A stretch of DNA of 64,000 bases, from contig CAZECX010000001.1 of assembly GCA_964510965.1 (NCBI GenBank), positions 13,582-77,581 of the forward strand. The letters run 5' to 3'. The position numbers and the translations under genes are program-made. Every line of letters starts with the position of its first letter. Within the stretch, counting starts at the first letter, position 1. The notes beneath the pieces are model-generated. The model was not told where the DNA came from and searched no databases. It saw only the letters and a list, made by a program, of their open reading frames with translations. Source of the stretch: an uncultured Nitrospina sp. GTDB lineage: Bacteria > Nitrospinota > Nitrospinia > Nitrospinales > VA-1. Positions 351 through 53,709 of this stretch are shown piece after piece.

Positions 351-354
351 TGGT

Positions 355-8754: not shown

Positions 8755-8795
8755 TTCAAAACCTTTATATATTTTTGCGAATGCTCAATTAGCTA

Positions 8796-28976: not shown

Positions 28977-30378
28977 GCCGATTTATCAAACCCTTCCAAA
29001 TGGTTAAAAAAAGAATTTTAATATCAAATATTAATGACCAGTTTTTAATATAATATAGATCGAATTCTATCCGCTTTTCCAAAGACGTATTTCCACGCCA
29101 GCCATTTACCTGTGCCCATCCAGTTAAGCCTGCCTTCATTTTTAATCGGAGCATGTAGAATGGTATGGATTTTTTAAATTCGTCCACAAATACAGGCCTC
29201 TCAGGTCGCGGTCCGACTAAACTCATCTGCCCCATAAACACATTAAATAATTGAGGTAGCTCATCCAGGCTGGTCCTTCGTAAAAAAGATCCTACAGGAG
29301 TTTTTCTATCATCATCTTCCTTCGCCCAAACAGGTCCCGTTTTATTTTCCGCACCTATTTTCATCGACCGAAACTTGTGCATCATAAAAACATCTCTATC
29401 CAATCCCATTCTTTCCTGTTTATACAGCAAGGGTCCACGGGATCCAAGTTTGACGGCTATCGCTATTAAAATCATCAACGGAAAGGTTATTAGAATTGCC
29501 AATCCAGAAAGCACAATATCAGAAACACGCTTCAAAACGGTATTCCAACCGTAAAGAGGAGACTCTGTCAGGTTAATCACCGGCATTCCATCCAGGTCTT
29601 CAATCCCAGATTGCAAATCTATATAGCGTAGTAAATCGGGAACAAGTTTAATGTCCACAGTTTCTTCTTCTAAACTTGCTAAAATTTTCTGCAATCGATC
29701 ATGAGCGTTTAAAGGTAGCGCAATAAAAAGCTGATCCACCTCATTTTCTTTTATAATTCGATTCAAATCTTCATAGAGCCCAAGTACCTTATATCCTTCT
29801 AATTCTGAACCCACTTTTTCCATTTCGTGAGTTAAATAACCGACCACGGAGAACCCAATTTCGGGGTACAGATTGAGTTTTTGCACAACTTTTTGTCCTA
29901 ACTCTCCTGCCCCAACCACGAGAACATTCCTCAGGTTCATTCCACGACCATGCATTTCCTTTACCAGGAACCGCGTAAATCGGTGCGATACAAATAAAAA
30001 AATATTGGCAAAAACCCAAAAATAAACAGCCATAATCCGCGAAAAAGAAAGCTCGCGGTAAAAGAAGGTCCCGGCGGTTAATAGAAGAACGGAAAGAGAA
30101 GTTAACTTTAAGATAGAAAAATATTCACTGGTAGGAGAATTCCTGCTTATAGGCTTATCATGATCCAAAATCCTGCTGTTTACATGAAAAACCAACCAAA
30201 TGGGTAGAAGCGCATAAAGATACATATTCTCAACGGGAGGGCTACCTGCTGCTGAAAAAAGCTCTAACTCAAACCTGACTAAATAAGCAAACAACCAAGC
30301 AAGGGCAACAGCAAAACTGTTGAAAAAAAATATTGCCGTTGAATAAACCTGACTATGTTTTCTTATCAATGCCATCAC
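28966..30378 (-). CDS. Polyprenyl-phosphate hexose-1-phosphate transferase (WbaP/WcaJ type)
   Basis: 470 aa. N-terminal TM block, a central Rossmann-like region, and a C-terminal bacterial sugar transferase domain (LDELPQLFNV, LVGPRPERP). Overlaps kdsB by 11 nt. Confidence 0.85.
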   Translation of the reverse strand: MMALIRKHSQVYSTAIFFFNSFAVALAWLFAYLVRFELELFSAAGSPPVENMYLYALLPIWLVFHVNSRILDHDKPISRNSPTSEYFSILKLTSLSVLLLTAGTFFYRELSFSRIMAVYFWVFANIFLFVSHRFTRFLVKEMHGRGMNLRNVLVVGAGELGQKVVQKLNLYPEIGFSVVGYLTHEMEKVGSELEGYKVLGLYEDLNRIIKENEVDQLFIALPLNAHDRLQKILASLEEETVDIKLVPDLLRYIDLQSGIEDLDGMPVINLTESPLYGWNTVLKRVSDIVLSGLAILITFPLMILIAIAVKLGSRGPLLYKQERMGLDRDVFMMHKFRSMKIGAENKTGPVWAKEDDDRKTPVGSFLRRTSLDELPQLFNVFMGQMSLVGPRPERPVFVDEFKKSIPFYMLRLKMKAGLTGWAQVNGWRGNTSLEKRIEFDLYYIKNWSLIFDIKILFLTIWKGLINRHAY

Positions 30379-30614: not shown

Positions 30615-31619
30615 CTATTGAATACGGTTCAATTGAGCCAGAATCTTGCCCCGTACCTCGGCTGTGGGATTTCTTTTTAAAGCACCTTCCAGTACTTCAA
30701 TAGCTCTACTGGTTTCCCCTTTCTTGGAGTAGCTCACTCCAAGCATATAGCGAGAATCATGCACCTTGTTGCCACGCGGATATTTGTTTAAAACGGTTTC
30801 AAATTGCAGGATAGCATCGTCAAACATTTCCAGCGCCAAATAGTTGCTGCCTATCCAAAATGCAATATTATCTTTTAGCTGATTTGGGGGATTGCTAAGC
30901 GCAAGATTTTGAAATAACAAAATAGACTCATCATAATTTCTACTGCGATATGCAGATAGTGCCCGGTCATATTCTGCGGGGGTTTTCATTTTAGAACGAC
31001 GCCTTTTTGATCGATTCATTTTCGGCGAGTGCGATTTTTGCATTTTAATCCGCGAAATTTCTTCGTTCAATCTTGCCATCTGCGCTTTTAGATCTTCCAC
31101 TTCTGGCTCAAGAAAATCGGTCGAGTCGGAAGCAGAGGAAACGCCCCCTTCTATGCGTTCGGTCGCAGCATCAATTTTGGGTTCTAATGTGCTAAGAATT
31201 TCTTCTAATTCTCTCACTTTACTGATTAGAGCCTCTTGCTGATTTTGCAGACTTTCTACATCTCCTTTGAGTTCGCCTTTATCCGTCCTCTGGTCCACGC
31301 TTGCGAAACCATCGGAGTCATCATCTGCAAATCCCTCATCGTCCTCCATCCCATCGGATTCAGAAAATGAATCATCTTCTGCAAAAAAGTCATCCTCGAT
31401 GCTGCTTTCGCGACTGGCTCTTTTTCCCCGCCCACGTTTTGGTCTTTCATCCGCGAATTCCTCATCTTCAAAAGGGAAATCCTCTTCAAACGCAAGATCG
31501 TCCTCTTCATCTCCTACCCAGGGCAAATAACTACAACCGCCCAAAAACAGAGGAAACGATAAAAAGATTACCAGTGCGAGGCGTGCTAAAAAGGTGACCG
31601 GTGGCATGTTTTTCTCCAT
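30615..31619 (-). CDS. YbgF/CpoB-like lipoprotein with acidic low-complexity region
   Basis: Possible lipobox FLGGC. An Asp/Glu/Phe-rich segment, then a coiled coil (LQNQQEALISKVRELEEIL, VEDLKAQMARLNEEISRIK), then C-terminal YbgF-type TPRs (YDRALSAYRSRNYDESILLFQNL...KYPRGNKVHDSRYMLG). Confidence 0.6.
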   Translation of the reverse strand: MEKNMPPVTFLARLALVIFLSFPLFLGGCSYLPWVGDEEDDLAFEEDFPFEDEEFADERPKRGRGKRASRESSIEDDFFAEDDSFSESDGMEDDEGFADDDSDGFASVDQRTDKGELKGDVESLQNQQEALISKVRELEEILSTLEPKIDAATERIEGGVSSASDSTDFLEPEVEDLKAQMARLNEEISRIKMQKSHSPKMNRSKRRRSKMKTPAEYDRALSAYRSRNYDESILLFQNLALSNPPNQLKDNIAFWIGSNYLALEMFDDAILQFETVLNKYPRGNKVHDSRYMLGVSYSKKGETSRAIEVLEGALKRNPTAEVRGKILAQLNRIQ

Positions 31620-33837: not shown

Positions 33838-34512
33838 TTATTTGTACATGAGGGAAACTAGTTGGACACGGGCATGCACCCGGAACTTGGAGTAAATCCT
33901 TTTTAAATGATCTTTTACGGTGTGTGGACTCAAATGTATCTTCTTGGCGATTTCTTTATCACTCAAACCCTCGCAAATTAATCGGGCCACATCGGCTTCC
34001 CTTTGAGTCAAGCCCGCTTCCTGCATTAAAAAGGTCATTTGTTTTTCAAGCTTATTATCGCCACTTACCAAAATTTCATTTTCCGCTTCAACCTTTTCAA
34101 ACATTTTCAGGTTTTCGCGTGCCCGTTTGGAAAGAGTTTTCATGATGGCCATCAAAGTATCCGGATAAGAAGACAATTCGGAATGAAACAAATCATGAGT
34201 GATTTCCAAGAGATGAGTGACACCCGAAGAAACTACCTTTGCAGACCGAGGCTTGGATTCAATCAAAGCCATTTCTCCAATATATTCCCCCATACCTCGG
34301 ACGGCGATCTCGGTTTCGTGTTTGTTAACAGTCACCCCACCAGAGAGAATGACGAACATGGAGTTACCATCATCACCATCTTCAAACAACGTCTCCCCAT
34401 CTTCTAAACTTTTATACAAGCATTCATTCGCAACTGATTCTAAAACATCTTGAGGAAGTTTTTTCAGAAAATCGATTTTAGATAGAAAGTCTATATTTGT
34501 TAACTCAGACAC
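33838..34512 (-). CDS. cNMP-binding domain / LuxR-type HTH transcription regulator
   Basis: GTG start 4 nt after AAGGTG. N-terminal CAP-type cNMP domain with phosphate-binding cassette GEYIGEMALIESKPRSA. C-terminal GerE/LuxR HTH LTQREADVARLICEGLSDKEIAKKIHLSPHTVKDHLKRIYSKF. Confidence 0.8.
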   Translation of the reverse strand: MSELTNIDFLSKIDFLKKLPQDVLESVANECLYKSLEDGETLFEDGDDGNSMFVILSGGVTVNKHETEIAVRGMGEYIGEMALIESKPRSAKVVSSGVTHLLEITHDLFHSELSSYPDTLMAIMKTLSKRARENLKMFEKVEAENEILVSGDNKLEKQMTFLMQEAGLTQREADVARLICEGLSDKEIAKKIHLSPHTVKDHLKRIYSKFRVHARVQLVSLMYK

Positions 34513-34534
34513 TCGGCACCTTAAATAAATTTTA

Positions 34535-34549
34535 CAATTTTGAAAATTG
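34535..34549. promoter_or_regulatory. 7-1-7 perfect palindrome CAATTTT-G-AAAATTG upstream of the cNMP-LuxR gene
   Basis: Read directly from the sequence. It lies 23-37 nt upstream of the GTG at 34512, and the outer TTT/AAA extends the symmetry with one mismatch. Candidate operator. Confidence 0.35.
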
Positions 34550-34638
34550 CAAACGACCCTATAATTTCAGAATTATAACATTTTTGAAAAAATTAATTTG
34601 AGGCAGGAAAACACGAATAGTTTCTCTTCGGGAAATAA

Positions 34639-36108
34639 TTATAATTGGAAATTTAATCCTGCTAAAAACACATTTTGATTAAAATCCACGGAAACTAAAT
34701 TTGAATTGCTCATGACTCGGGTATAGCTAATATCAAAGTCTATATGATCTTTTATGATAGGTAGATTAAACAAAAGGTTAAGAGTGTGCTTGGAATCAAA
34801 ACGCGGCACACCGATAGATGAATTAATATTCTCAAAATTCTTAAGATAATAGTTATATGTAAATTGGGTTGATATTTCGAAGGGTCCGGGAATTTTTATT
34901 CCGCCCGTTGCTGAATGTCCCAAATAGTCCAACTCGAAATCCTCGGTATCATCCATGTCAAAAGCATAACTGGCAAACAAGTAGGCTTTCGCATCCATAA
35001 AAAACCAGAACTGCGTCAAACTCCATACATGAGATGTTCCATCCCGGGCATTACCCACAAAATAATCGTTAATATTATAGGTGTAAGATAGATTTGTGTA
35101 GAAGTTGGGATCGGGTGCATAACCCAGACGCGGGGTGATGCTGTGAGTTGCATTTAAATCAGCTCGATCCAGGAAACTGTAATTATAATTAAAACTTATA
35201 TCACCATCCCAATCACCGGAACCATAACCCACAGAGGAATAAAAGTCATGCGATGTGCTGTCGAACTGCGGCAGTTTGTCCCATCTCTGTTGTGAAAAGT
35301 CATAGCCGATTTCAATTTCCGAGTTTTCGAAAGGTTCGAATTGGGTTCCTACGCTGAGCAGATAACCTATAGATCTATCCTGCTCGTTGGAAACAATGTC
35401 CTGATTTGATACGATGACATTATCATCGTATTGAGAATTAATTTCAGCCTTGATCCACCAGTTTTTTTCACCCTCCGACTCAACCCCCAACAGCTTTAGC
35501 ATATCTTTGGCTTGCCCTGCTGTGGAAGTATCCGGGCCTTCTTCTACAGCCAATTGAAAAGCCAGTTTTGCCTCTTCTTCTTTTTTACTTTCCAAATATC
35601 CCACACCAATTTGAAAATAGGAAATCTGGTTTAAGGAAGGATCCAGACCCATTGCGGATTGAAAAAATATTAAGGACTCCTCATATTTTTCCATCTGCTG
35701 CAGGGTGAACCCCATGAACAAATTCGCAGTGGCATTTTGGCGATTATTCTCCAACACCTTTTCAAATTTTTGAATGGCCTCAGAGTTGGATTTGAGCTTA
35801 AAAAGCACTATTCCCAATTGTAAGTGCGCGCCTTTGTATTTGGGGTCTTTTTGCAAAACATTTTCAAAAGTCTGCCTGGCCTGTTCCAGCTTTTTTGCTT
35901 TTGCTAAGGTGAGGCCCTTGTAATAGAGAGCTTCGAGATTGGAAGGATCTTTATCTAGGATTTTTGAGAATTCGCTTAGAGCCTGATTATATTTCCCTTC
36001 ATTGTAAAATTGAAGGCCCAGAACCAAAGGAGAGGAAGATGTTTCTTGTGCCTGAGTGGACGCAACGTACAGAGTCAAATATAGAAATAGGTACAAAAAA
36101 AATTTCAC
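34639..36108 (-). CDS. Outer-membrane protein: N-terminal TPR domain plus C-terminal beta-barrel
   Basis: Signal peptide MKFFLYLFLYLTLYVASTQAQE, about 5 TPRs up to roughly aa 200, then about 280 aa of alternating amphipathic strands rich in Y/D/N/S/F, ending GLNFQL. Confidence 0.6.
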   Translation of the reverse strand: MKFFLYLFLYLTLYVASTQAQETSSSPLVLGLQFYNEGKYNQALSEFSKILDKDPSNLEALYYKGLTLAKAKKLEQARQTFENVLQKDPKYKGAHLQLGIVLFKLKSNSEAIQKFEKVLENNRQNATANLFMGFTLQQMEKYEESLIFFQSAMGLDPSLNQISYFQIGVGYLESKKEEEAKLAFQLAVEEGPDTSTAGQAKDMLKLLGVESEGEKNWWIKAEINSQYDDNVIVSNQDIVSNEQDRSIGYLLSVGTQFEPFENSEIEIGYDFSQQRWDKLPQFDSTSHDFYSSVGYGSGDWDGDISFNYNYSFLDRADLNATHSITPRLGYAPDPNFYTNLSYTYNINDYFVGNARDGTSHVWSLTQFWFFMDAKAYLFASYAFDMDDTEDFELDYLGHSATGGIKIPGPFEISTQFTYNYYLKNFENINSSIGVPRFDSKHTLNLLFNLPIIKDHIDFDISYTRVMSNSNLVSVDFNQNVFLAGLNFQL

Positions 36109-36235
36109 AACAAAAAGCCAATTTTTAAAATAAAGACTTTAAGAGTAACCTATTTCTAAAAATTTTCCAGTTTAATTCAACGGGTTAGCTTATTCGGACA
36201 ACCAAACATTTAGCTGGTAGTAATGGACAGCTAAA

Positions 36236-37549
36236 TTAGCAAGCCTTCTTTCCTTTACCTTTGCATTGTCCAGATTTTCCTGGCGATCCCCCTTTATTTT
36301 CTTTATCCTGCCCAACTCTCTTGGTTGCACCTTTAGCTTCCCTTTTAGCAACTTCCTTTCGAAATTTTTTCGCAATTTTTCCAGGATTAGAAGATTTGAA
36401 AGAAGGTTTGAATTTGGTGTTTTTAGGTACGACATCGCCCCCGCCTAATGAAGCGAGTTTGGTATCAGTTTTTCTACCTCGTTTTTCAACCTCATCTTTT
36501 TTCAAAAATTTGGATTTTGCGGTTCTAACACCTTTACCTCTTTTTACACCTTTTCCCTTAAACTTACCTTTGCCCTTGTTTTTAAACTTACCAAGACCTT
36601 TACCTTTGCCGGCCTTTACTACTGCTTTGGCTGCACCCCTGGCAATTTCCTGAATCTGGCCTTTCGCAACAATGGATTTTTTTCCGAGCTGTCCATTGGC
36701 AAGGATAGGAGCGGTTTCAATAGAGCCTGAGATACCTATAAAGGAGGTCTTGCCGGCTTTATCAACTGCCACTACAAATTCCGTCCCGCGCACCCCTGCA
36801 ACTGCAGTTGGGGTCACTACTTTAAAACTGGAACCCTTTGCCTTACCTTTGGTCACCACAAACCTTACGGTTCCCTCGGCGACATTGACCACGGTTTGCC
36901 GCAAGTCTTTTTCTGGATCATAGATATGCTTTTTAATTCTGATATTGGAATTTTCTCCAATGGTCAAAGAACTTTTATCATCGAAGGTGAAAGAAGCTTC
37001 CGAATCCTTTTTAGTTTTGATTTTGTCATTCATAAAAACGGGAGAAGCCAACTGAACACTTTCCCCTTTTTTCTCGCCCTTATGAAACTGCAGGATTTTT
37101 CCATCCGCAGCTGTTGCAATGCCAACATCAGCGGATTTGACAACGCCTTTATCTTTTAGAAACAGTTTTTGTTCGAACAAGTTTCTGCCGGGAGGCTCTC
37201 CCGAAAGAGCATAGGCAACACGCACGAATTCCTGCTCTGTCATCCTTTCTTTAGGATCTTTTTCGGACAGGACTTTAAACCCGCGAATTTTTAAAATATT
37301 TGCAGTTTTGGAATACAACTCTTCCTGCGATAATTTAGCGTGGTTTTTGGGAAGAAAAGGATGATCCGGCTGATTTTCAGCTATCGTTGCAACAAACTCA
37401 CCCCGAGTCAGTTCAGAGTTATCCGTGCTTGCAGAGATGAGCACCAAAGTACAGGTGGCAAATAATAGGAATTGAAAAAGAGGGTTTAAAAAACCTTTTC
37501 TACTTTTCTTAAAAAATTCTTTATCAAAAACTCTATTAAAATTTCCCAT
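36236..37549 (-). CDS. FecR-domain envelope protein with Lys/Gly-rich C-terminal tail
   Basis: N-terminal hydrophobic anchor (LFQFLLFATCTLVLISA). Central FecR fold (SFTFDDKSSLTIGENSNIRI...VVTPTAVAGVRGTEFVV). Last 124 aa contain 36 Lys by my count (GKGKGLGKFKNKGKGKFKGKG...). Confidence 0.7.
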   Translation of the reverse strand: MGNFNRVFDKEFFKKSRKGFLNPLFQFLLFATCTLVLISASTDNSELTRGEFVATIAENQPDHPFLPKNHAKLSQEELYSKTANILKIRGFKVLSEKDPKERMTEQEFVRVAYALSGEPPGRNLFEQKLFLKDKGVVKSADVGIATAADGKILQFHKGEKKGESVQLASPVFMNDKIKTKKDSEASFTFDDKSSLTIGENSNIRIKKHIYDPEKDLRQTVVNVAEGTVRFVVTKGKAKGSSFKVVTPTAVAGVRGTEFVVAVDKAGKTSFIGISGSIETAPILANGQLGKKSIVAKGQIQEIARGAAKAVVKAGKGKGLGKFKNKGKGKFKGKGVKRGKGVRTAKSKFLKKDEVEKRGRKTDTKLASLGGGDVVPKNTKFKPSFKSSNPGKIAKKFRKEVAKREAKGATKRVGQDKENKGGSPGKSGQCKGKGKKAC

Positions 37550-37747
37550 ACTCCTCTGAGGCTCCCTTAAATACTACCGTTTTCGTATTTGCTTCAAAAA
37601 ACATTTCGGCTCTATTATTATGGTCAATGAAAACTACCTCTAAAACAATCCCACAAATGGGGTATTTTATTAAGATTTACCAACCTTGTAATCAAGGCAG
37701 CATGTCTTAATCCTATGCTATCTGCCTGATATTTGGTTTCACACAAT

Positions 37748-39886
37748 TCAAATTTCTAAACGGGGTTTAACCAGTATATGAGCAAGGCTTTCCGGTAGCA
37801 ACGGTTTTTCAACAATATTCCCTTGAATTACATCACAACGGTATTTGCGTAGTAGTTCTTTCTGCTCTTTGGTTTCCACTCCTTGGGCAGCAGTCCTTAA
37901 ATCAAGGCTTTTGCCGACAGTAATAATAGTGTTGGTAATAGCGTCATTGGCTCCTGTGAATAATCCATTCACCAATCCTCGATCGATATTCAATCCGCTC
38001 AAAGGTAAGGTAGCCAAGGTGTTTAGGGAAGATAACCCCATACTGAAATTATCAATGATAATTTTAGCCCCCATTTCATTGACTTCATTCAATTGCTTTT
38101 TATGTTCAGCCGAAGTTTTTACTAAATTGATTTCTGGAATTTCTATTTCAACAAATCCACTGGGAAGCCCCGATTTACTAATAAAATTATCCAGGGTTTG
38201 AGAAAATTTGGGGTTCATCAGTTGACTATCAGAAATATTTAATGCCAGAGGCAAGGGTGTTAATCCGTCTTTTTTCCAAATCGCGATTTGTTTTTGAATA
38301 TTTTCAAATACCCATTCACCGATGGGCAGCATCAATCCTTTTTCTTCTGCAAAGGGCAGAAAGTTATCGGGTAAAATAATGCCTTTCTCGGGGTGATTCC
38401 ATCGAAGTAATACTTCAAGTCCAGTACATACACCTGTTTTGGAATCCACCTTGGGTTGGTAATTTAAAATAAAGGCATCGTCTTCCAAGGCTCTGTGTAA
38501 ATCATTTTTGAGGTCAAATCGTTTTTGAGCCACTGAAAGCAATTCAGGGTCATGCATAAAATAAGTATTTTTCCCCTGAGCCTTGGCCCGATACATCGCC
38601 GCATCTGCATTTTTATAAAGCGTTTCCACATCATTGCCGTCATTGGGGTAAACCGCGATGCCAATGCTGAAACTGGAAAAGATTTCGTGTGATTCAATTT
38701 GAAAAGCGGGCTTGAGAGATTCAACTATCCTTTCCGCAAGCACAGTAGAATAATTGCTGTCCTTCAACCCACTCAAAAGAACAACAAACTCATCACCTCC
38801 AATTCTGGCAACAGTGTCTTCCCCTCTAAGCAATCCGGTCAAACGTCCTGCGACTTGCTTTAATAATTCATCACCCACAGAATGGCCCAGGGTGTCATTC
38901 ACGGTTTTAAAGTCATCCATATCGAGAAACAACAATGCGAACTTTTGCTTGTTACGATCCGAATGAGCAAGAGCCAGCTGAATTCTATCGTTGATCATAT
39001 TGCGGTTGGGTAAATTAGTCAGAGGATCAAAAAAAGCCATTCGCTTCATTTTGTATTCCATCTGTCGAAACTCGGTGAGATCTCTTACAATTACAACAAG
39101 GGCGCTGGTATCCCGGAGGACCATCAATTTCATTTTTACTTTTATAGGATAGACCGTGCCATCCTTTCTCTTTTGAAAAGCTTCAAAAACCTGAATAATT
39201 TTGCTTCCACTTTTAAGTGTTTCAGCGTATTCATCAAATTCGAGTCGTGATTGATCTTCCCAGAATTCATAAAGAGCCCTGCCCTTAAGTTGACTCTTGG
39301 AATAACCCATGTTCTTTGTAGCCACAGAATTGGTTTGGGTAATTTTGTAATCTTTGTCATCAATGACAAAAATTTCGTTGCTGGTATCGTCCAGCACCTG
39401 TGATAATTTTTCAGCGTTGTCTTTCGTCAGAACCAACTCGGCTTTCATGTCGTCCATGACATCTAAATCAGTACGAGCTCTTTGTGAAAGAGTCTTTAGC
39501 AGAGCAAACAGGGATTGGGAGTGGTCAGAAAATTCTTTTTGAAATTTTTCATCGGTAATTTCAAGCAATTGCGATTGCACTTCTGCACGAATGGTTGCAG
39601 ATCGGGGTTCAGATCCAATCAAACCCATTTCACCGATGTATTCACTGGTCTTTCTTCTGGCAATCACCTTGTTCTTTTTATAAACCAGCAATTCTCCAGA
39701 AAGGATGATGTACATGGCATTAGAAACATCTCCTTCTTCAAATAATACTTCAAGGGCTTCCAAAGTAACTATTCGGGAAGAGCGCGCCAATTTTGCAAGC
39801 GTTTCTTCAGAAAAAAAGCTTAAAAAATCAACATTCCTAAGCTGCTCTAAGTTTTCGACTTCATCCATTGTAAAATTTTCTGCCAT
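37748..39886 (-). CDS. cNMP-binding / PAS / GGDEF / degenerate-EAL protein (predicted diguanylate cyclase)
   Basis: 712 aa. cNMP cassette SEYIGEMGLIGSEPRSA, a PAS domain, then GGDEF (aa 363-367, nt 38786-38800) with RGED I-site. The EAL half reads EVLLR...DNFSMGLSS...NID...QGVE. Confidence 0.85.
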   Translation of the reverse strand: MAENFTMDEVENLEQLRNVDFLSFFSEETLAKLARSSRIVTLEALEVLFEEGDVSNAMYIILSGELLVYKKNKVIARRKTSEYIGEMGLIGSEPRSATIRAEVQSQLLEITDEKFQKEFSDHSQSLFALLKTLSQRARTDLDVMDDMKAELVLTKDNAEKLSQVLDDTSNEIFVIDDKDYKITQTNSVATKNMGYSKSQLKGRALYEFWEDQSRLEFDEYAETLKSGSKIIQVFEAFQKRKDGTVYPIKVKMKLMVLRDTSALVVIVRDLTEFRQMEYKMKRMAFFDPLTNLPNRNMINDRIQLALAHSDRNKQKFALLFLDMDDFKTVNDTLGHSVGDELLKQVAGRLTGLLRGEDTVARIGGDEFVVLLSGLKDSNYSTVLAERIVESLKPAFQIESHEIFSSFSIGIAVYPNDGNDVETLYKNADAAMYRAKAQGKNTYFMHDPELLSVAQKRFDLKNDLHRALEDDAFILNYQPKVDSKTGVCTGLEVLLRWNHPEKGIILPDNFLPFAEEKGLMLPIGEWVFENIQKQIAIWKKDGLTPLPLALNISDSQLMNPKFSQTLDNFISKSGLPSGFVEIEIPEINLVKTSAEHKKQLNEVNEMGAKIIIDNFSMGLSSLNTLATLPLSGLNIDRGLVNGLFTGANDAITNTIITVGKSLDLRTAAQGVETKEQKELLRKYRCDVIQGNIVEKPLLPESLAHILVKPRLEI

Positions 39887-40101
39887 TAAATCTGACCTGG
39901 AGCTATTATAGATAAAAAACCTGAATCAATTATAGTTTCTATAAACAAAAACAAAATCCCCCCCGTTTAAGGGATAAGCAAAAAACTATTGTTTTTAAAT
40001 GATTTAACTAATTATTTGTTACACAATATTGACATTATTTTTAATTTCAGTCAGTGATGCGTAAAATTACAATCATTGGAATTAATGGAACAGACAAGTA
40101 A

Positions 40102-42363
40102 TTGATAAATAATAAAAAAAAATATTCCATCTATTTTTCTGGGTTGGTAATTACTTTAGCAGTTTTGTGTGCCTATGTGGTTTTTCCAAATGCATTAACA
40201 CGTCTGGATTATCTATTTCAAAATTTTCATTTCCAACTACGCGGACCCATTAAACCTACGTCCAATATTGTTATCGGAAGAATTGATGAAAAAAGTATAG
40301 ATACTTTGGGAAGATGGCCCTGGCCGCGATCGACTTTTGCAAAAATCACTGAAAACCTTTCAAGCTTGAATGCCAAGGTAATTGCTTATGATGTTATTTT
40401 TTCATCTCCTGAAAAATTTCCATCGGAAGAGAATTTGATTGAGCTGGATAAACTGATCTCGGAAAATTCTTCCGCCAAAAATTATTTAAAGAATCTAATA
40501 AACCAAAACAACCCCGACGAAGTTTTTTCAAAAACTCTTTCAGATGGAAGCCCAACGGTTCTGGGTTATTTTTTCCATTTTTCTCCTGATGGTCTTGACC
40601 ATCTTTCTGAGGAGCAACGTCATCAATTTTTTAAAGACATAAAAAAATCACAGTTCAGAGGATTTTTAAAATCCAACGCGGATTTGGATATTTCCCATCT
40701 CCCCTTTCCAAAAGCTTTTGCAATTGAATCTAACCTGGCTATTTTTTCTGATTCCGCATCCGGTTCCGGTTACTTGACTTTTAATGTGGACCTCGATGGC
40801 ATGATCCGACGTTTGCCCTTAATGGTGCGCTATCACGACAGCATCTCTAAAAAGGATTTTTACTTTCCTCCTCTCTCTTTACGAATTCTCGAAACTTATT
40901 TGGATGGGAATTTACTTTTCAGGGTGGGCGAAGGGGGAATGGAAGAAGTCATAATGGATGCGGATGAATCGGTAATCATACCCACAAACTCCAAAGGCGA
41001 ACTGGAAATAAATCATCTTGGGCCTAGAGGGACATTCTCCAGTTTTTCTATCAGCGATCTTTTAAAACCCGAAAAACTATCGGAGCTCAAAGACAAAATA
41101 CAAGGGAATATTGTGTTGATCGGTGCAACTGCGACAGCACTGGAAGATTTAAGGTCAACCCCTTTTGACCCCATCCTGCCGGGGGTGGAAATTCACGCAA
41201 CAATATTGGATAATTTTTTCAATAAATCGTTCCTCTCCCAAGCTTCTCCACTTTACGATTTACTTTTAATAATTATTACGGGGATTTTATGCACCCTTAT
41301 CTACTCCCAAATCAAACCCGTCTCAGGCCTCATCTTTTGGGTATTGAGCAGTGGGCTATTATTTCTTTTAAGTCATTGGACTTTTGTTGAAAAAGGTTTC
41401 TGGTTAACCGATATTTATCCGTTTTTCACCAATACTGGAATAGCAGCTTTAATAATGATTGATCATTTTATGCGTGAAGAAAAACAAACAAAATTTATTA
41501 AAGAGGTTTTTGGACAATATCTATCTCCCCGGGTTGTAAAAGATTTATTAGCAGATCCATCAAGGTTAAAACTGGGGGGTGAGCAAAAAATACTCACCGC
41601 ATTTTTTACTGACCTGGCCAACTTCACCACATTTTCAGAAAAACTATCAGCCGAAGAGCTGGTATCGCTGCTAAACAGCTATTTCACTGAAATGACAGAC
41701 ATCTTGATTGAAAATGATGGAACGCTGGATCGTTATGATGGTGATGCAATCAAAGCCTTCTTTGGAGCCCCCTTATACTTTGAAGATCATGCCAAACGTG
41801 CCTGCTGGACCTGCATTGAAATGCAGGAAAGACTCAGTGAATTGAGAAAAGAATATAAGGAACAGGGAAAACCAGAACTGGTAATGCGGGTAGGTATCAA
41901 CACCGGAGAAATGGTTGTAGGTAATATGGGTTCAAGCACTCGCATGAATTACGGTATGAACGGAGATTCCGTAAACCTGGCCGCCCGTCTTGAAGGAGCC
42001 AACAAACAATACGGGACCTGCACCCTTATAAGTGAATTTACTTACCAGGAAGCGAAAGATTTTATTGAGGTGAGAGAACTCGATACCCTTCGCGTTGTCG
42101 GTCGTTCCACGCCTATAAAAATTTATGAGTTGCTGGGGAAAAAAGGCAGTCAAAATTTTCCAATCGGCTTACCGGATTATTTGGAAGGCCTGAAAAACTA
42201 CAAAGCCCAGAAATGGCAGGCCGCTATTGAGAGCTTTAAAAGAGCCTTAAAAGCTAATCCTGAAGATGGCCCATCACAAACTTATTTGGAGCGCTGCAAA
42301 ATATTCATGGAAGCTTCCCCAGGAGAAGGTTGGGATGGAGTTTTTAACTTGACCAAAAAGTAA
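40102..42363 (+). CDS. CHASE2-sensor class III adenylate/guanylate cyclase
   Basis: 753 aa. TM1, a periplasmic region of about 340 aa (GRWPWPRS is a CHASE2 hallmark), 3 TM helices, then the cyclase domain (FFTDLANFT, YDGDAIKAFFGAP, GDSVNLAARLEG) and a TPR-like tail. TTG start as in the ORF track. Confidence 0.85.
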   Translation: MINNKKKYSIYFSGLVITLAVLCAYVVFPNALTRLDYLFQNFHFQLRGPIKPTSNIVIGRIDEKSIDTLGRWPWPRSTFAKITENLSSLNAKVIAYDVIFSSPEKFPSEENLIELDKLISENSSAKNYLKNLINQNNPDEVFSKTLSDGSPTVLGYFFHFSPDGLDHLSEEQRHQFFKDIKKSQFRGFLKSNADLDISHLPFPKAFAIESNLAIFSDSASGSGYLTFNVDLDGMIRRLPLMVRYHDSISKKDFYFPPLSLRILETYLDGNLLFRVGEGGMEEVIMDADESVIIPTNSKGELEINHLGPRGTFSSFSISDLLKPEKLSELKDKIQGNIVLIGATATALEDLRSTPFDPILPGVEIHATILDNFFNKSFLSQASPLYDLLLIIITGILCTLIYSQIKPVSGLIFWVLSSGLLFLLSHWTFVEKGFWLTDIYPFFTNTGIAALIMIDHFMREEKQTKFIKEVFGQYLSPRVVKDLLADPSRLKLGGEQKILTAFFTDLANFTTFSEKLSAEELVSLLNSYFTEMTDILIENDGTLDRYDGDAIKAFFGAPLYFEDHAKRACWTCIEMQERLSELRKEYKEQGKPELVMRVGINTGEMVVGNMGSSTRMNYGMNGDSVNLAARLEGANKQYGTCTLISEFTYQEAKDFIEVRELDTLRVVGRSTPIKIYELLGKKGSQNFPIGLPDYLEGLKNYKAQKWQAAIESFKRALKANPEDGPSQTYLERCKIFMEASPGEGWDGVFNLTKK

Positions 42364-42419
42364 TTAATAATTAATGTAACGCATACTGCAGCTGTTTTTA
42401 CTTTGAAGAGATTCTATTA

Positions 42420-44522
42420 ATGAATGCAAGGACAACATTAGATGTCTTTAATGAAATAGATTTTCTAAGAGACCTGCCCGGGTTAAATTTTCTCCACGAA
42501 AATGCAAATATTGGAAGATACCAAAAAGGAGATTTCCTGTTTAGAGAAGGGGAAACCGGAGATACCATGTACGTGATTACCGATGGGTGTCTGGAGGTAT
42601 TCAAAGAAAACCGCATCATAGCCAAAAGAACCAAGGGGGAATACCTCGGTGAAATGGCCCTTTTGGGAAATAAAATTCGATCCGCTTCTGTTAAAGCCAC
42701 AACCGATGTTCAAACAATTGAAATCCATGAAAAACATTTTTTAGAATTTTTATCCCTTAATCCTCAGGCCTTTTTACCCCTATTCCAAACTCTTGCCCAT
42801 CGATGGAAAGAGGACTTGGAAAAAATTGATTCTGACAATCTTGAGTTAAAAAAACAAATTCAGTTAAACAGTAGGTATTCTCGCCTCTTAGACGACACCT
42901 TCAACGAAATTTATATTCTTGAAAAAGAAACATATCGAATTCTTCAAGCAAATTCCAAAGCTATTCAAAATCTTGGCTTCACCCACGAAGAATTGAATAA
43001 AACAGTCTTTAGCGATGTATTTGAAAATTTGAAATTGAATGAATTAAAAGAATTATTCGCAACCCTGATTGATAAAAAACAAGTTCAAGTTTCCTTTGAA
43101 AGTGAGAGTAAAAGAAAGGATGGCACAACCTATCCTGTCGAAATACGCATTCAATATTTTGAACTCGAAGATCCCCCGCTGATCTATGCCATTGTCGAAG
43201 ATATCTCAGACAAAAAAGCAATGGAACTGCACATTAAGAAGCTGGCCTTTTACGACACTTTAACCCAATTACCTAATCGAAACTTAATCCGAGATCGTTT
43301 GGAAATCATGCTACCCCGCGCGCAAAGATCAAATTCCAAGGTGGCTGTTTTATCCATGGATTTAGACAACTTTAAATCAATAAATGATTCCCTTGGACAT
43401 GAAGCGGGAGATCAGTTTTTAATCCAAGTGGCGAATCGCTTTGAAGGGATCCTGCGTAAAGAGGATACATTCGGACGTTTGGGTGGTGATGATTTTGTTA
43501 TTCTTCTCCCCAATCTAGAAGATGAATACTTTCCAGCAAAAATGGCGCAACGTGTCCTTGAAATTATGGAGCGGCCCTTCGAATTACAGGAAAAACTATT
43601 TCACTGCAACTTTAGTATTGGAATTGCAATGTTCCCGGATAATGGCAAGGATGTTGAAACAATTTTTAAGAATTCAAACATTGCAATGTATCAGGCCAAA
43701 AAAAATGGTGGCCATACTTACCATATATATGAATCTTCTATGCATGACAAAATCATATCGCGATTGGCTATGGAGCAGAATTTGTGGAATGCAATTAAAA
43801 ATAAAGAATTTAAAATGCATTATCAACCCAAGGTCAACCTGAAAACCGGATTGATTGAAGGATTAGAAGCTCTTATTCGCTGGCCGCAACCAAGTGGTAA
43901 AAATATCTCCCCAGCAGTATTCATTCCCCTTGCCGAGGAAAGCCGACTCATTCATAAAATATGGGATTGGACCCTAGAAACCACATGCGGTCAAATCCAG
44001 GAGTGGTGCCACTTATACGGGAAAGGCATAAAAGTAGGAGTTAACCTGTCGGGCAGACAGTTTGAGCAACCGGACTTAGTTGAAAAAATTAAAAATGTTG
44101 TAATAGCGGAGGGAATCCATCCCAAGTTCCTGGAAATTGAAGTTACTGAAACCGCAGTTATGGCAAATATAAAGGCGGCCATCGATGTATTGGATCAACT
44201 CCGAGATTTCGGGGTCCAAATATCTCTTGACGATTTCGGTTCCGGATATACCTCTCTGGGCTATTTGAAAAAACTCCCCATTAACACCTTGAAAATTGAT
44301 CAATCTTTTATTCGCGATTGTACGGACACCAGCAATTTGGCGATTATTCAGGGCATCATTACCATTTCAAAAAAAATGGGATTTAAAACAATTGCTGAGG
44401 GAGTAGAAATGCAAGATCAGCACGATTTATTAAAGAGTCTTGAGTGCGATCAGTTCCAAGGTTATCTGTGCAGTAAGGCACTCCCGCCTGAAGAAATCGC
44501 TCGTTTAATTTGGCTCGATTGA
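42420..44522 (+). CDS. cNMP-binding / PAS / GGDDF / EAL protein (predicted c-di-GMP phosphodiesterase)
   Basis: 700 aa. cNMP cassette GEYLGEMALLGNKIRSA, a PAS domain, then GGDDF (aa 355-359, nt 43482-43496) with RKED I-site. The EAL set is fully canonical (EALIR, NLS, EVTE, DDFGSGYTSL, KIDQSF, EGVE, QGY). Confidence 0.85.
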   Translation: MNARTTLDVFNEIDFLRDLPGLNFLHENANIGRYQKGDFLFREGETGDTMYVITDGCLEVFKENRIIAKRTKGEYLGEMALLGNKIRSASVKATTDVQTIEIHEKHFLEFLSLNPQAFLPLFQTLAHRWKEDLEKIDSDNLELKKQIQLNSRYSRLLDDTFNEIYILEKETYRILQANSKAIQNLGFTHEELNKTVFSDVFENLKLNELKELFATLIDKKQVQVSFESESKRKDGTTYPVEIRIQYFELEDPPLIYAIVEDISDKKAMELHIKKLAFYDTLTQLPNRNLIRDRLEIMLPRAQRSNSKVAVLSMDLDNFKSINDSLGHEAGDQFLIQVANRFEGILRKEDTFGRLGGDDFVILLPNLEDEYFPAKMAQRVLEIMERPFELQEKLFHCNFSIGIAMFPDNGKDVETIFKNSNIAMYQAKKNGGHTYHIYESSMHDKIISRLAMEQNLWNAIKNKEFKMHYQPKVNLKTGLIEGLEALIRWPQPSGKNISPAVFIPLAEESRLIHKIWDWTLETTCGQIQEWCHLYGKGIKVGVNLSGRQFEQPDLVEKIKNVVIAEGIHPKFLEIEVTETAVMANIKAAIDVLDQLRDFGVQISLDDFGSGYTSLGYLKKLPINTLKIDQSFIRDCTDTSNLAIIQGIITISKKMGFKTIAEGVEMQDQHDLLKSLECDQFQGYLCSKALPPEEIARLIWLD

Positions 44523-50858: not shown

Positions 50859-51230
50859 ATGGATTTAAATAAAAAATTATTGGTTGTTGATGACAGTCAG
50901 ATCCAGTTGGTTGTTTGCGTTAACCAACTCAAGCAATTGGGCTTTGAAAAGATAGCAGTAGCTAAGGATGGGGGAAAAGCCTATTCCATCTTAGAAAAGG
51001 GTTCCATTGATGTGATTATCTCTGATTGGGAGATGCCCGAAATGGATGGGTTAGAGCTTTTAAAAAAGGTCAAAACTAACCCTTCCCTTCAGGGCATACC
51101 CTTTATAATGCTTACTGCCCACAAGGATGAAAAGTTGAATCAGGAAGCAATTCAATTTGGTGCTGCAGATTTCATCGTTAAACCCGGGACCCCTGATTTA
51201 TTTAAAGAAAAGCTGAAGGCGATCATGTGA
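50859..51230 (+). CDS. Single-domain (CheY-like) response regulator
   Basis: 123 aa. LLVVDDS, phospho-acceptor context VIISDWEMPEMDG, MLTA and KP motifs. No output domain. Confidence 0.85.
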   Translation: MDLNKKLLVVDDSQIQLVVCVNQLKQLGFEKIAVAKDGGKAYSILEKGSIDVIISDWEMPEMDGLELLKKVKTNPSLQGIPFIMLTAHKDEKLNQEAIQFGAADFIVKPGTPDLFKEKLKAIM

Positions 51231-51232
51231 CC

Positions 51233-52345: not shown

Positions 52346-52380
52346 AAATAATTCTTTTAGAATTTGAGGTTAGATAGCTT

Positions 52381-53694: not shown

Positions 53695-53709
53695 ATCTTT
53701 TATAGTCAA

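What the first reader, a model, noticed from the sequence alone, without database searches (positions are those of the whole stretch)
34639..37549. TPR/beta-barrel outer-membrane protein plus FecR-domain protein as candidate envelope partners of the CHASE2 sensor
The CHASE2 ligand is still unknown (established knowledge). Next to the cyclase locus lie two co-oriented envelope genes. One is a signal-peptide protein with about 5 TPRs and a C-terminal barrel of about 280 aa (489 aa total). The other is a membrane-anchored FecR-fold protein (VVTPTAVAGVRGTEFVV). FecR-fold proteins are periplasmic signal transducers in other contexts. An OM barrel, a periplasmic FecR protein and an IM CHASE2 cyclase could therefore form a trans-envelope sensing chain. 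An alternative reading is that the size and TPR-plus-barrel layout resemble Slam/DUF560 (type XI secretion) proteins. In that case the adjacent FecR/Lys-rich protein could be its cargo. I cannot tell these apart by eye.
Basis: inference. Interest (0 to 1): 0.65.

Follow-up and report, generated by a model that had tools for sequence, protein, structure and literature searches.

The report
Split outer-membrane partner of CHASE2 cyclase
Two neighbouring genes in a Nitrospinota genome encode a Slam-like outer-membrane barrel and an exported FecR-domain protein with a lysine-rich tail; together they look like a two-piece version of the rhizobial NsrA receptor that feeds signals to CHASE2 cyclases, but this has not been tested experimentally.

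Summary
The 489-aa protein has a signal peptide, about 5.5 TPRs and a confidently modelled 14-stranded barrel. The 437-aa protein has an N-terminal hydrophobic helix, a helical "anchoring-like" domain, a FecR/PupR-fold domain and a 118-aa Lys-rich tail.

1. FecR-domain genes sit next to CHASE2 genes in all 12 loci examined. In S. meliloti the 1190-aa ORF just upstream of cyaK, identified here as NsrA, fuses FecR, TPR and a barrel in one protein.
2. The barrel belongs to a large unnamed family (3,586 clusters) at the edge of Pfam SlipAM/DUF560 and BBP2_2. Its recurrent neighbour is an exported protein with a charged, period-4 repeat tail (18/60 loci against 5/748 background ORFs). CHASE2 is near the barrel only in Nitrospinota.
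3. In Paracoccus aminophilus, a TPR-barrel gene precedes a FecR protein carrying a weak T11SS-cargo-type domain match, followed by a CHASE2 cyclase.

Best reading: the barrel docks or exports the FecR protein, and the FecR protein partners the CHASE2 sensor. The gene cluster itself is already published. The Slam link and the tail signature were not found in the literature searched. No interaction has been shown.

The parts
34639..36108 (-). Outer-membrane protein of 489 aa: signal peptide, about 5.5 TPRs and a 14-stranded beta-barrel
   Evidence: ORF. TPR Pfam hits; TPR_Slam scores 32.6 bits against a cut-off of 35.2. AF2 model pLDDT 89.7. About 20 full-length homologues in Nitrospinota MAGs.
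35491..36030 (-). Periplasmic TPR domain (aa 27-206)
   Evidence: Eleven helices in the model. Pfam TPR_1, TPR_2, TPR_19 and related families.
34645..35460 (-). 14-stranded barrel (aa 217-488). It is strongly acidic: 37 D/E against 15 K/R.
   Evidence: Strand count. A profile of the barrel finds 3,586 clusters at 50% identity. Relatives hit SlipAM and BBP2_2. Composition.
36236..37549 (-). Exported FecR-domain protein of 437 aa
   Evidence: ORF. Pfam FecR E 4.6e-17. More than 100 Nitrospinota homologue clusters.
37433..37483 (-). N-terminal hydrophobic helix (aa 23-39): signal peptide or membrane anchor, not resolved
   Evidence: Helix in the model. No Cys is conserved across homologues.
37151..37411 (-). 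Helical domain with two 'TRGEF/EQEF'-type repeats (aa 47-133); candidate cell-wall or surface anchoring module
   Evidence: Model segment at pLDDT 85-98. Foldseek match to 5ix9 'cell surface anchoring domain', target TM 0.77, rmsd 1.0. Calling it SLH-like is my inference.
36611..37129 (-). FecR/PupR-fold beta domain (aa 141-313)
   Evidence: Foldseek matches to 4m0h and 6ovk. Pfam FecR. BLASTP to the NsrA FecR domain E 4e-10.
36239..36592 (-). Lys-rich low-complexity tail (aa 320-437), ending ...QCKGKGKKAC
   Evidence: 29% Lys. Low pLDDT or isolated helix in the model. Related tails occur in partners of other barrel-family genes.
40102..42363 (+). Inner-membrane CHASE2 adenylate/guanylate cyclase with one C-terminal TPR
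   Evidence: Pfam CHASE2 E 4.7e-50 and Guanylate_cyc E 3.4e-20.
37748..39886 (-). cNMP-binding PAS-GGDEF-EAL protein, co-oriented with and upstream of the FecR gene
42420..44522 (+). Second cNMP-binding PAS-GGDEF-EAL protein, downstream of the cyclase
33838..34512 (-). cNMP-binding LuxR-type transcription regulator, downstream of the barrel gene
   Evidence: The same position is kept in L001 and L002.

Best explanation
The two genes encode the envelope-side module of a CHASE2 cyclic-nucleotide pathway. They are a two-polypeptide analogue of the S. meliloti receptor NsrA, which fuses FecR, TPR and a barrel.

Proposed steps:
1. The FecR protein is exported by Sec. Its FecR/PupR-fold domain acts in the periplasm as the partner (co-sensor or modulator) of the CHASE2 domain of the neighbouring cyclase.
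2. The TPR-barrel is a 14-stranded outer-membrane protein of a Slam/T11SS-related family. Its conserved job is to handle an adjacently encoded exported protein.
3. The periplasmic TPR domain probably binds the partner. The barrel then docks or threads the partner's low-complexity C-terminal tail, or translocates it. This ties the FecR protein to the outer membrane or cell surface.
4. A signal captured at the outer membrane would pass through FecR to CHASE2 and change cNMP synthesis. The cNMP would be read by three neighbouring cNMP-binding proteins: two GGDEF-EAL enzymes and one LuxR-type regulator.

Shown: the domain content, the folds, the gene neighbourhoods and the family relationships.
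Inferred: every protein-protein contact, the topology of the FecR protein, and the nature of the signal.
For: 1. FecR-CHASE2 adjacency holds in 12 of 12 loci.
- Nitrospinota: the window, L001 and L037.
- Alphaproteobacteria: S. meliloti cyaK, Paracoccus, Ruegeria, Leisingera, Microvirga, Ensifer and Rhodobacteraceae SC52.
- Betaproteobacteria: Variovorax and Paraburkholderia.
- In several of these loci the FecR gene overlaps the start of the CHASE2 gene.

2. The 1190-aa ORF upstream of cyaK, identified here as NsrA, has FecR at aa 66-160, TPRs at about aa 417-587 and a C-terminal barrel. PMC7529298 places the NsrA barrel at aa 600-1200. Published genetics make NsrA necessary for signalling through CHASE2 cyclases (PMC7529298, PMC13001267).

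3. The trio is retained in Nitrospinota after rearrangement. In L037 a barrel-only gene lies directly upstream of the cyclase and the FecR gene is convergent.

4. The barrel family pairs with exported partners.
- FecR genes abut barrel genes in distant members L004, L007 and L013 without any CHASE2 gene.
- Elsewhere the upstream partner is a non-FecR exported protein with the same kind of tail. Charged tails occur in 18 of 60 partners against 5 of 748 background ORFs (Fisher p 9e-18). Lag-4 residue identity is 0.51 against 0.10.
- Many Nitrospinota FecR homologues end in the same '(AKxx)n..AKQVAKE.GKGKGK' tail as non-FecR partners.

5. Links to Slam/T11SS.
- The model has 14 strands and a TPR domain.
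- SlipAM hits occur in 45 of 100 relatives at E<=0.01 and in 16 of 100 at E<=1e-5.
- In Paracoccus pAMI5, a TPR-barrel gene (weak SlipAM match) precedes a FecR protein with sub-threshold C-terminal TbpB_B_D and FHBP_C matches, followed by a CHASE2 cyclase.

6. The FecR fold matches PupR, whose homologous domain binds the periplasmic signalling domain of an outer-membrane transducer.
Against: - No interaction was computed or measured; no multimer prediction tool was available.
- The barrel family at large is not linked to CHASE2 (3 of 83 loci, all Nitrospinota), so the Nitrospinota co-location could be lineage inertia.
- The window barrel does not itself reach Pfam SlipAM.
- It is not detectably homologous to the NsrA barrel (hhalign probability 0.3%) or to the Paracoccus barrel (3.4%).
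- The FecR protein lacks the 8-stranded C-terminal barrel that defines known T11SS cargo.
- The window's own tail is Lys/Gly-rich and has no period-4 repeat (lag-4 identity 0.18).
- Barrel charge does not co-vary with tail charge. The barrels are about -22 whether the partner tail is basic or acidic (Mann-Whitney p 0.96). This argues against a simple electrostatic tail-in-barrel model.
- Most CHASE2-FecR pairs have no barrel gene nearby, so the outer-membrane component is accessory.
- The Paracoccus matches to SlipAM, TbpB_B_D and FHBP_C are all below Pfam's cut-offs.
Confidence: 0.5

Rival explanations
1. This is a pure T11SS-like secretion pair unrelated to CHASE2. The barrel exports the FecR/Lys-rich protein to the cell surface as an adhesin or matrix-binding protein, like the Leptospira FecR-domain surface proteins LipL45 and Lsa33. 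The cyclase is merely a syntenic neighbour.
For: - The barrel family's conserved neighbour is an exported tailed protein, not CHASE2.
- FecR-barrel pairs exist without CHASE2 in L004, L007 and L013.
- NCBIfam gives sub-threshold similarity to the Leptospira surface adhesins Lsa33, LipL45 and Lsa19.
- Relatives hit SlipAM.
Against: - FecR-CHASE2 adjacency holds in 12 of 12 loci across several orders.
- The trio is retained in a rearranged form in L037.
- NsrA genetics tie a FecR-TPR-barrel protein to CHASE2 cyclases (PMC7529298).
- The FecR protein has no T11SS-type C-terminal cargo barrel.
Confidence: 0.2
2. The TPR-barrel is an exopolysaccharide or other polymer export porin of the BcsC/PgaA/PelB type, controlled by the neighbouring c-di-GMP enzymes. 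The FecR protein is an unrelated periplasmic partner of CHASE2.
For: - The best full-length Foldseek hits are to E. coli BcsC (E 7e-15).
- BBP2_2 hits occur in 51 of 100 relatives.
- GGDEF-EAL genes flank the pair.
- A sugar-transferase gene lies about 4 kb away, at 28966-30378.
Against: - The model has 14 strands, not 16, and the TM-score to BcsC is only 0.38.
- No synthase or glycosyltransferase operon is adjacent.
- The family-wide conserved neighbour is a tailed exported protein, not polysaccharide genes.
Confidence: 0.1
3. There is no functional link. The barrel is a generic small porin and the FecR protein a generic periplasmic protein, and they lie next to the cyclase only because of conserved Nitrospinota synteny.
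For: - Flanking housekeeping genes (cysE-like, cysteine desulfurase, pyrG, kdsB) are also syntenic between the window and L001.
- Some FecR proteins sit among housekeeping genes, as in L115.
Against: - The gene order differs in L037 but the trio persists.
- Equivalent trios or fusions occur independently in Paracoccus and S. meliloti.
- Tailed partners are strongly enriched next to barrel genes (p 9e-18).
Confidence: 0.1

Closest known systems
NsrA-CyaK/CyaD1/CyaD2 of Sinorhizobium meliloti (outer-membrane receptor plus CHASE2 adenylate cyclases)
   Same: The same three modules (FecR domain, TPRs, C-terminal outer-membrane barrel) are encoded next to a CHASE2 class III cyclase. The FecR domains are homologous (BLASTP E 4e-10). 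In both, the cNMP is read by a nearby cNMP-binding regulator.
   Different: NsrA is one 1190-aa polypeptide with a barrel of about 600 aa, and its gene overlaps cyaK. Here the modules are split between two proteins. The barrel has 14 strands over about 272 aa and is not detectably homologous to the NsrA barrel. The FecR protein has an extra helical domain and a Lys-rich tail. The cyclase gene is divergent and one gene away.
Slam / type XI (T11SS) secretion: DUF560/SlipAM outer-membrane proteins such as Slam1, NilB and HrpB, with adjacent cargo
   Same: Periplasmic N-terminal TPRs, a 14-stranded barrel and a total length of about 490 aa. The adjacent gene encodes a Sec-exported protein. Family relatives score on Pfam SlipAM and TPR_Slam.
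   Different: The window protein misses SlipAM and is below the TPR_Slam cut-off. The organism is a Nitrospinota, whereas T11SS is described in Proteobacteria. The neighbour has a Lys-rich tail in place of the 8-stranded TbpBBD-type barrel. No TonB or metal-uptake genes are present. No paper in the held library contains both 'DUF560' and 'FecR', and the 2025 T11SS cargo survey mentions neither FecR nor cyclases.
FecR/PupR-FecA/PupB cell-surface signalling (anti-sigma factor plus TonB-dependent transducer)
   Same: A FecR-fold periplasmic domain (Foldseek to PupR and BDI_1681) is paired with an outer-membrane barrel protein that has a periplasmic N-terminal extension.
   Different: There is no cytoplasmic anti-sigma domain (only about 20 residues precede the helix). 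No ECF sigma gene or TonB-dependent receptor was seen among the ORFs scanned. The output is a cyclase, not a sigma factor.
Published FecR-CHASE2 clusters: the Burkholderia 'BiofilmReg' operon (RR, LysM-FecR, CHASE2 kinase, DUF4136; PMC5192318) and the Campylobacterota cluster (CHASE2 cyclase, phosphodiesterase, FecR protein, TPR protein; PMC9239204)
   Same: A FecR-domain exported protein is encoded beside a CHASE2 sensor. In the Campylobacterota cluster a TPR protein is present as well. A wall-binding module sits N-terminal to FecR (LysM there, a helical anchoring-like domain here).
   Different: Those papers give no barrel assignment, no Slam relationship and no tail signature. The outputs differ (histidine kinase against cyclase). 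Whether the Campylobacterota TPR protein carries a barrel could not be checked.
BcsC/PgaA/PelB TPR-porins of synthase-dependent exopolysaccharide export
   Same: TPR domain followed by a C-terminal barrel. BcsC is the best full-length structural match. The locus is rich in c-di-GMP enzymes.
   Different: Those porins have 16 strands and much longer TPR arrays and sit in synthase operons. None of that applies here.

Membership tests
Slam / T11SS outer-membrane protein (Pfam SlipAM, DUF560) | Barrel domain matches PF04575 SlipAM | tested here: inconclusive
   The window barrel gives no SlipAM hit even at E<=10. Of 100 profile-related family members, 45 hit SlipAM at E<=0.01 and 16 at E<=1e-5, with a best E of 3.2e-12. 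Similar numbers hit BBP2_2.
Slam / T11SS outer-membrane protein (Pfam SlipAM, DUF560) | 14-stranded barrel | tested here: met
   The AF2 model has 14 strands over aa 217-488, with pLDDT mostly above 90. The barrel alone resembles the 14-stranded CymA and OmpG.
Slam / T11SS outer-membrane protein (Pfam SlipAM, DUF560) | Periplasmic N-terminal TPR domain (PF24575 TPR_Slam) | tested here: inconclusive
   TPRs are clearly present. The TPR_Slam score is 32.6 bits against a cut-off of 35.2.
Slam / T11SS outer-membrane protein (Pfam SlipAM, DUF560) | Adjacent cargo with a C-terminal 8-stranded beta-barrel (TbpBBD or hemophilin type) | tested here: not met
   The FecR protein ends in a Lys-rich, low-confidence or helical tail with no C-terminal barrel. 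An analogous Paracoccus FecR protein does show sub-threshold TbpB_B_D (E 2.3e-4) and FHBP_C (E 2.3e-3) matches.
Slam / T11SS outer-membrane protein (Pfam SlipAM, DUF560) | Barrel-dependent surface exposure or secretion of the neighbour | not testable with these tools
   Needs fractionation or protease shaving.
NsrA-type receptor of CHASE2 cyclases | FecR domain, TPRs and outer-membrane barrel encoded next to a CHASE2 cyclase | tested here: met
   All modules are present but on two polypeptides.
NsrA-type receptor of CHASE2 cyclases | Sequence homology to NsrA over its whole length | tested here: not met
   Only the FecR domain (E 4e-10) and generic TPRs align. The barrels are unrelated by hhalign (probability 0.3%).
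NsrA-type receptor of CHASE2 cyclases | Required for signal-dependent cyclase activation | not testable with these tools
   This rests on genetics in S. meliloti only (PMC7529298).
FecR-type anti-sigma factor (cell-surface signalling) | Cytoplasmic anti-sigma N-domain, adjacent ECF sigma gene and TonB-dependent transducer | tested here: not met
   Only about 20 residues precede the hydrophobic helix. None of the window ORFs scanned with Pfam between 30.6 and 63.4 kb is an ECF sigma or a TonB-dependent receptor. The window was not scanned exhaustively.
FecR-type anti-sigma factor (cell-surface signalling) | FecR periplasmic fold | tested here: met
   Pfam FecR E 4.6e-17. Foldseek to 4m0h and 6ovk, rmsd 3.0-3.4 over about 140 columns.
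BcsC/PgaA-type exopolysaccharide porin | 16-stranded barrel, long TPR array, synthase operon | tested here: not met
   The model has 14 strands and about 5.5 TPRs, and no synthase gene is adjacent. The TM-score to BcsC is 0.38.

The most novel reading that the evidence does not exclude
A large, unnamed branch of the Slam/T11SS-related barrel superfamily recognises its partners through long low-complexity C-terminal extensions, not through a cargo beta-barrel. These extensions are period-4 (AAKx / EDEx)n helical tails, Lys/Gly tails or Pro/Thr linkers. In CHASE2 loci this machinery threads or docks a FecR-domain protein through the outer membrane. The result would be a physically continuous chain from the cell surface to an inner-membrane cyclase: a modular, split form of NsrA and a general answer to how CHASE2 sensors receive signals that cannot cross the outer membrane.
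Probability: 0.25. Interest if true: 0.8.

Novelty: new variant of a known kind. Interest (0 to 1): 0.6.

Why it matters
CHASE2 is a widespread extracytoplasmic sensor domain for which I found no defined ligand or mechanism. Few papers since 2019 in the held library mention it, and none of those listed has it in the title. The only functional lead found is that S. meliloti CHASE2 cyclases need the outer-membrane protein NsrA.

This work shows three things:
- A FecR-domain gene was adjacent to the CHASE2 gene in every one of the 12 loci examined.
- The outer-membrane part can be supplied in different ways: a fused barrel, a Slam-like TPR-barrel or an OmpA-type protein.
- The Nitrospinota version uses a barrel from a T11SS-related family.

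That turns a vague "unknown ligand" problem into a set of testable protein-protein contacts. It also suggests that T11SS-like barrels have roles in signalling outside Proteobacteria, and it flags a partner signature (repeat tails) that no paper found in the literature searches describes.

Tried and rejected
A hand-made degenerate DNA motif replaced it.
- The third word-indexed protein search, with a diverse barrel alignment, returned only 13 proteins.
- The CHASE2 motif scan of metagenome contigs returned 21 mostly short, fragmentary contigs with no usable neighbours. CHASE2-centred statistics therefore rest on nine plasmid or chromid loci and three Nitrospinota loci.
- No solved structure is related by sequence.
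- The NsrA primary paper (PMC5952392) is not held. The identification of the 1190-aa ORF upstream of cyaK as NsrA therefore rests on its position and on the published barrel range of aa 600-1200.
- Charge complementarity between partner tail and barrel was tested and rejected.
- Homology of the window barrel to the NsrA and Paracoccus barrels was tested and not found.
- Three context look-ups fell on contigs too short to be informative.
- The promoter and terminator scan gave nothing above background.
- A lipoprotein reading of the FecR N-terminus ('FATC') was rejected because the Cys is not conserved.


Full report
**Observation**

The window is from a Nitrospinota (Nitrospinae) genome. The closest named homologues of both proteins come from Nitrospinae or Nitrospinales MAGs, and identical proteins lie on a 104.6-kb public contig.

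The two ORFs exist exactly as stated: 34639-36108(-), 489 aa, and 36236-37549(-), 437 aa. They are co-oriented with a 127-bp gap. On the same strand they lie between a cNMP-PAS-GGDEF-EAL gene (37748-39886) and a cNMP-binding LuxR-type regulator (33838-34512). The CHASE2 adenylate/guanylate cyclase (40102-42363, +) is transcribed divergently and is followed by a second cNMP-PAS-GGDEF-EAL gene. The locus is therefore a compact six-gene cyclic-nucleotide signalling island.

**The 489-aa protein**

Pfam finds only TPRs. TPR_Slam is just under its cut-off (32.6 against 35.2 bits), and nothing matches aa 205-489.

An AlphaFold2 model built on 19 homologues is confident (mean pLDDT 89.7). It shows a signal-peptide helix, 11 helices over aa 27-206 (about 5.5 TPRs) and 14 beta strands over aa 217-488. 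Against the PDB, the full length resembles E. coli BcsC, a TPR-plus-barrel protein, with a TM-score of only 0.38. The barrel alone resembles the 14-stranded CymA and OmpG. No solved structure is related by sequence. The barrel is very acidic: 37 D/E against 15 K/R.

**The barrel family**

A profile of the barrel alone was searched against 1.84 billion representative proteins. It finds 3,586 clusters at E<=1e-3 and 481 at E<=1e-30. They fall into two architectures: TPR plus barrel (about 480-520 aa) and barrel only (about 300-340 aa).

Of 100 of the best hits, 45 match Pfam SlipAM (DUF560, the Slam/T11SS barrel) and 51 match BBP2_2 at E<=0.01. At E<=1e-5 the numbers are 16 and 14. TPR_Slam is hit by 31 and 12 respectively. 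The window protein is thus a divergent member of a large family on the border of the Slam/T11SS family, without itself qualifying for the Pfam family.

A degenerate DNA motif from the family's 'RDYxx[IV]TPSIGxxR' stretch found 72 loci in GTDB species genomes, and 71 of them carry a family member. They come from Halieaceae, Wenzhouxiangella, Pseudohongiella, Luminiphilus, Marinicaulis, Robiginitomaculum, Sphingomonadales and Nitrospinota.

**The 437-aa protein**

It matches Pfam FecR at E 4.6e-17 and shows sub-threshold similarity to the Leptospira FecR-domain surface proteins Lsa33 and LipL45.

Its model (pLDDT 80) has these parts:
- a hydrophobic helix at aa 23-39;
- a well-modelled helical domain at aa 47-133 with two 'TRGEF'-type repeats, which matches a PDB 'cell surface anchoring domain' (5ix9, target TM 0.77);
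- a beta domain at aa 141-313 that matches the FecR-type anti-sigma BDI_1681 and the PupR cell-surface-signalling domain (E 3e-7 to 6e-6);
- a poorly modelled tail.

The tail is 29% Lys and ends in ...QCKGKGKKAC. There is no C-terminal beta-barrel. No Cys is conserved in the N-terminus, so lipidation is unlikely. Whether the helix is a cleaved signal peptide or a membrane anchor stays open.

**Is the pair linked to CHASE2?**

Within Nitrospinota:
- A genome whose barrel protein is 52% identical to the window's keeps the same gene order, but so do the flanking housekeeping genes.
- More telling is a Nitrospinaceae genome (L037) with a different arrangement. A barrel-only gene lies directly upstream of, and co-directional with, the CHASE2 cyclase. 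The FecR gene is convergent, and a cNMP-binding gene is beside it.

Outside the phylum:
- In every CHASE2 locus I could inspect, a FecR-domain gene lies next to the CHASE2 gene, usually immediately upstream and often overlapping it.
- These loci are S. meliloti cyaK, Paracoccus aminophilus, Ruegeria, Variovorax (LysM-FecR), Paraburkholderia (FecR, then an OmpA-family protein, then CHASE2), Leisingera, Microvirga, Ensifer and Rhodobacteraceae SC52.
- Adding the three Nitrospinota loci gives 12 of 12. The loci are not phylogenetically independent.

The literature already reports this pairing in Burkholderiales (PMC5192318). It also reports a CHASE2-cyclase, phosphodiesterase, FecR and TPR-protein cluster in Campylobacterota (PMC9239204).

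**The NsrA precedent**

The 1190-aa ORF that overlaps the start of cyaK in S. meliloti carries a FecR domain (aa 66-160), TPRs (about aa 417-587) and a C-terminal barrel region. Published work places the NsrA barrel at aa 600-1200 (PMC7529298). It also shows that NsrA and the CHASE2 cyclases CyaK and CyaD1/D2 are both needed to perceive a plant signal, the ribosomal protein uL2 (PMC7529298, PMC13001267).

On this basis I identify the ORF as NsrA, although the primary NsrA paper could not be read. NsrA then fuses the same three modules that the window splits between two genes. This is a Rosetta-stone argument that FecR, TPR and an outer-membrane barrel work together upstream of CHASE2. The FecR domains are homologous (E 4e-10). 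The barrels are not detectably related (hhalign probability 0.3%), so the resemblance is one of architecture, not orthology.

**Is the barrel a Slam-like handler of the FecR protein?**

Across 83 barrel-family loci, CHASE2 is nearby only in the three Nitrospinota cases. FecR abuts the barrel in six: the window, L001, L004, L007, L013 and L037.

What recurs is an exported protein encoded next to the barrel gene, usually just upstream, with a low-complexity C-terminal tail:
- In several loci it is a non-FecR protein with a signal peptide, an Ala/Asp/Glu-rich coiled-coil region and a tail of (AAKx)n repeats ending in ...GKGKGKKS...AKGKS or ...NQGKGKA. An 'ALNRSLNNA' motif was seen in some of these (L003, L008, L043).
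- In Nitrospinales it is a TPR protein with an (EAAK)n-like tail.
- In Parvularculaceae and Sphingomonadales the tail is acidic, (EDEV)n or (EEAA)n, often ending ...NSGKG.

Charged tails occur in 18 of 60 upstream partners against 5 of 748 other ORFs in the same loci (Fisher p 9e-18). They show a strong period of four residues (lag-4 identity 0.51 against 0.10).

Many Nitrospinota orthologues of the window's FecR protein end in the very same '(AKxx)n...AKQVAKE.GKGKGK' tail. Others end in Gly-rich repeats or a C-x(5-10)-C loop like the window's. The tail therefore behaves as a portable module that travels with this barrel family whatever the partner's N-terminal domain. That is what a recognition or docking element would be expected to do.

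A simple electrostatic model fails, however. The barrels are about -22 in net charge whether the partner tail is basic or acidic (p 0.96).

**A bridging case: Paracoccus aminophilus pAMI5**

This plasmid encodes three genes in a row:
- a 474-aa TPR protein with a C-terminal barrel-like region ending in ...IHNF (weak SlipAM match, E 0.02);
- a 655-aa FecR protein with a long Pro/Thr-rich linker and a C-terminal region matching TbpB_B_D (E 2.3e-4) and FHBP_C (E 2.3e-3), the domain type that defines T11SS cargo (PMC8406197, PMC12282271);
- a CHASE2 cyclase.

All these matches are below Pfam's cut-offs. The Paracoccus barrel is not detectably related to the window's. The combination still suggests that FecR proteins of CHASE2 loci can be clients of Slam-like barrels.

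No paper in the held library contains both 'DUF560' and 'FecR'. The 2025 T11SS cargo survey mentions neither FecR nor cyclases.

**Interpretation**

- The FecR protein is the periplasmic partner of the CHASE2 domain. The adjacency is shown; the contact is inferred.
- The TPR-barrel is a T11SS-related outer-membrane protein that docks, threads or exports the FecR protein through its C-terminal tail. This is inferred from the family-wide neighbourhood signature and from the NsrA fusion.
- The cNMP produced is read by the three neighbouring cNMP-binding proteins. This is inferred from their domain content.

Whether the FecR domain stays in the periplasm is unknown. Two observations favour a periplasmic location: its wall-anchoring-like domain, and the LysM and OmpA modules found in analogous loci. 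The T11SS precedent favours surface exposure.

Rival readings remain possible and are scored in the rivals section: a secretion pair unrelated to CHASE2, an exopolysaccharide porin, and chance synteny.

**Novelty and limits**

The existence of the gene cluster, and the idea that an outer-membrane protein serves CHASE2 cyclases, are both already published. What I did not find in the literature searched:
- the assignment of the TPR protein to a 14-stranded Slam/BBP2_2-related family;
- the split-versus-fused relationship to NsrA;
- the repeat-tail signature of the barrel's partners;
- the FecR protein with a cargo-type domain match in Paracoccus.

No interaction was computed or measured. CHASE2-centred statistics rest on 12 loci. 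Several key domain matches are sub-threshold. I therefore class this as a new variant of a known kind, with moderate-to-good interest.

Noticed in passing
L003 3869-5224; L008 3111-4226; L011 8523-9869; L015 455-2089; L019 3319-5022; L034 2248-3216(-); L043 1791-2978; L039, L042, L046, L047, L049, L052, L057, L071, L082 (upstream of the barrel gene): Genes immediately upstream of barrel-family genes encode exported proteins with period-4 repeat tails. The tails are either Lys-rich, (AAKx)n ending ..GKGKG, or acidic, (EDEV)n or (EEAA)n ending ..NSGKG. Frequency is 18/60 against 5/748 background ORFs. No Pfam family covers them.
   Followed up: partly
L107 (Paracoccus aminophilus pAMI5) 3473-9118: An operon-like row of three genes: a TPR-barrel (weak SlipAM match); a FecR protein with a long PTGPTG linker and sub-threshold C-terminal TbpB_B_D and FHBP_C matches (the T11SS cargo type); and a CHASE2 cyclase. 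A cNMP-binding patatin-like phospholipase gene is divergent.
   Followed up: partly
L037 (Nitrospinaceae JBHHVU010000036.1) 2224-7998: A rearranged version of the trio. A barrel-only gene (no TPR) lies directly upstream of the CHASE2 cyclase, the FecR gene is convergent, and a cNMP-binding gene is beside it.
   Followed up: yes
window 33838-44522: Three cNMP-binding proteins (two cNMP-PAS-GGDEF-EAL and one cNMP-LuxR HTH) surround the cyclase. This suggests a direct cNMP to c-di-GMP and transcription relay within one island.
   Followed up: partly
P0032, P0051, P0071, P0089, P0096, P0097, P0101, P0107, P0116 and window 36236-36270: Nine Nitrospinota FecR homologues, and the window protein, end in a basic C-x(5-10)-C loop. 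This may be a terminal disulfide hairpin.
   Followed up: no
L030 1884-3497(-); also L042, L082, L022, L065, L080: In L030 a roughly 540-aa ORF directly downstream of the barrel gene is a subtilase (Peptidase_S8 by Pfam). Similar-sized neighbours ending in a similar '...YGYGLIRP' motif flank the barrel gene in several Sphingomonadales, Hyphomonadaceae and other loci. Only L030 was scanned with Pfam.
   Followed up: partly
L113 (Ensifer sp. PDNC004) 202-8929: A CHASE2 cyclase gene is divergent from a small TPR gene, a FecR gene and an NHLP-type bacteriocin export system (ABC peptidase/permease plus secretion protein).
   Followed up: no
L110 (Paraburkholderia aromaticivorans pBN1) 5668-8266: A FecR gene (150 aa), then an OmpA-family gene, then a CHASE2 gene. 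Here an OmpA-type protein occupies the position taken elsewhere by a barrel.
   Followed up: no
window 51227-57681: A second sensory cluster: a porin O/P-like protein, a periplasmic binding protein (Peripla_BP_5) and a 1323-aa hybrid histidine kinase with PAS, HisKA, HATPase, two receiver domains and Hpt.
   Followed up: no
window 30615-31619 (-): A 334-aa protein with a possible lipobox (LFLGGC), a very acidic region, a coiled coil and C-terminal TPRs. It looks YbgF/CpoB-like, and it is conserved at the same position in L001.
   Followed up: no
L001 5405-7548: In the related Nitrospinales genome, the cNMP-PAS-GGDEF-EAL gene is called as two ORFs: 88 aa (cNMP) and 626 aa. This is a possible frameshift or a real split.
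   Followed up: no
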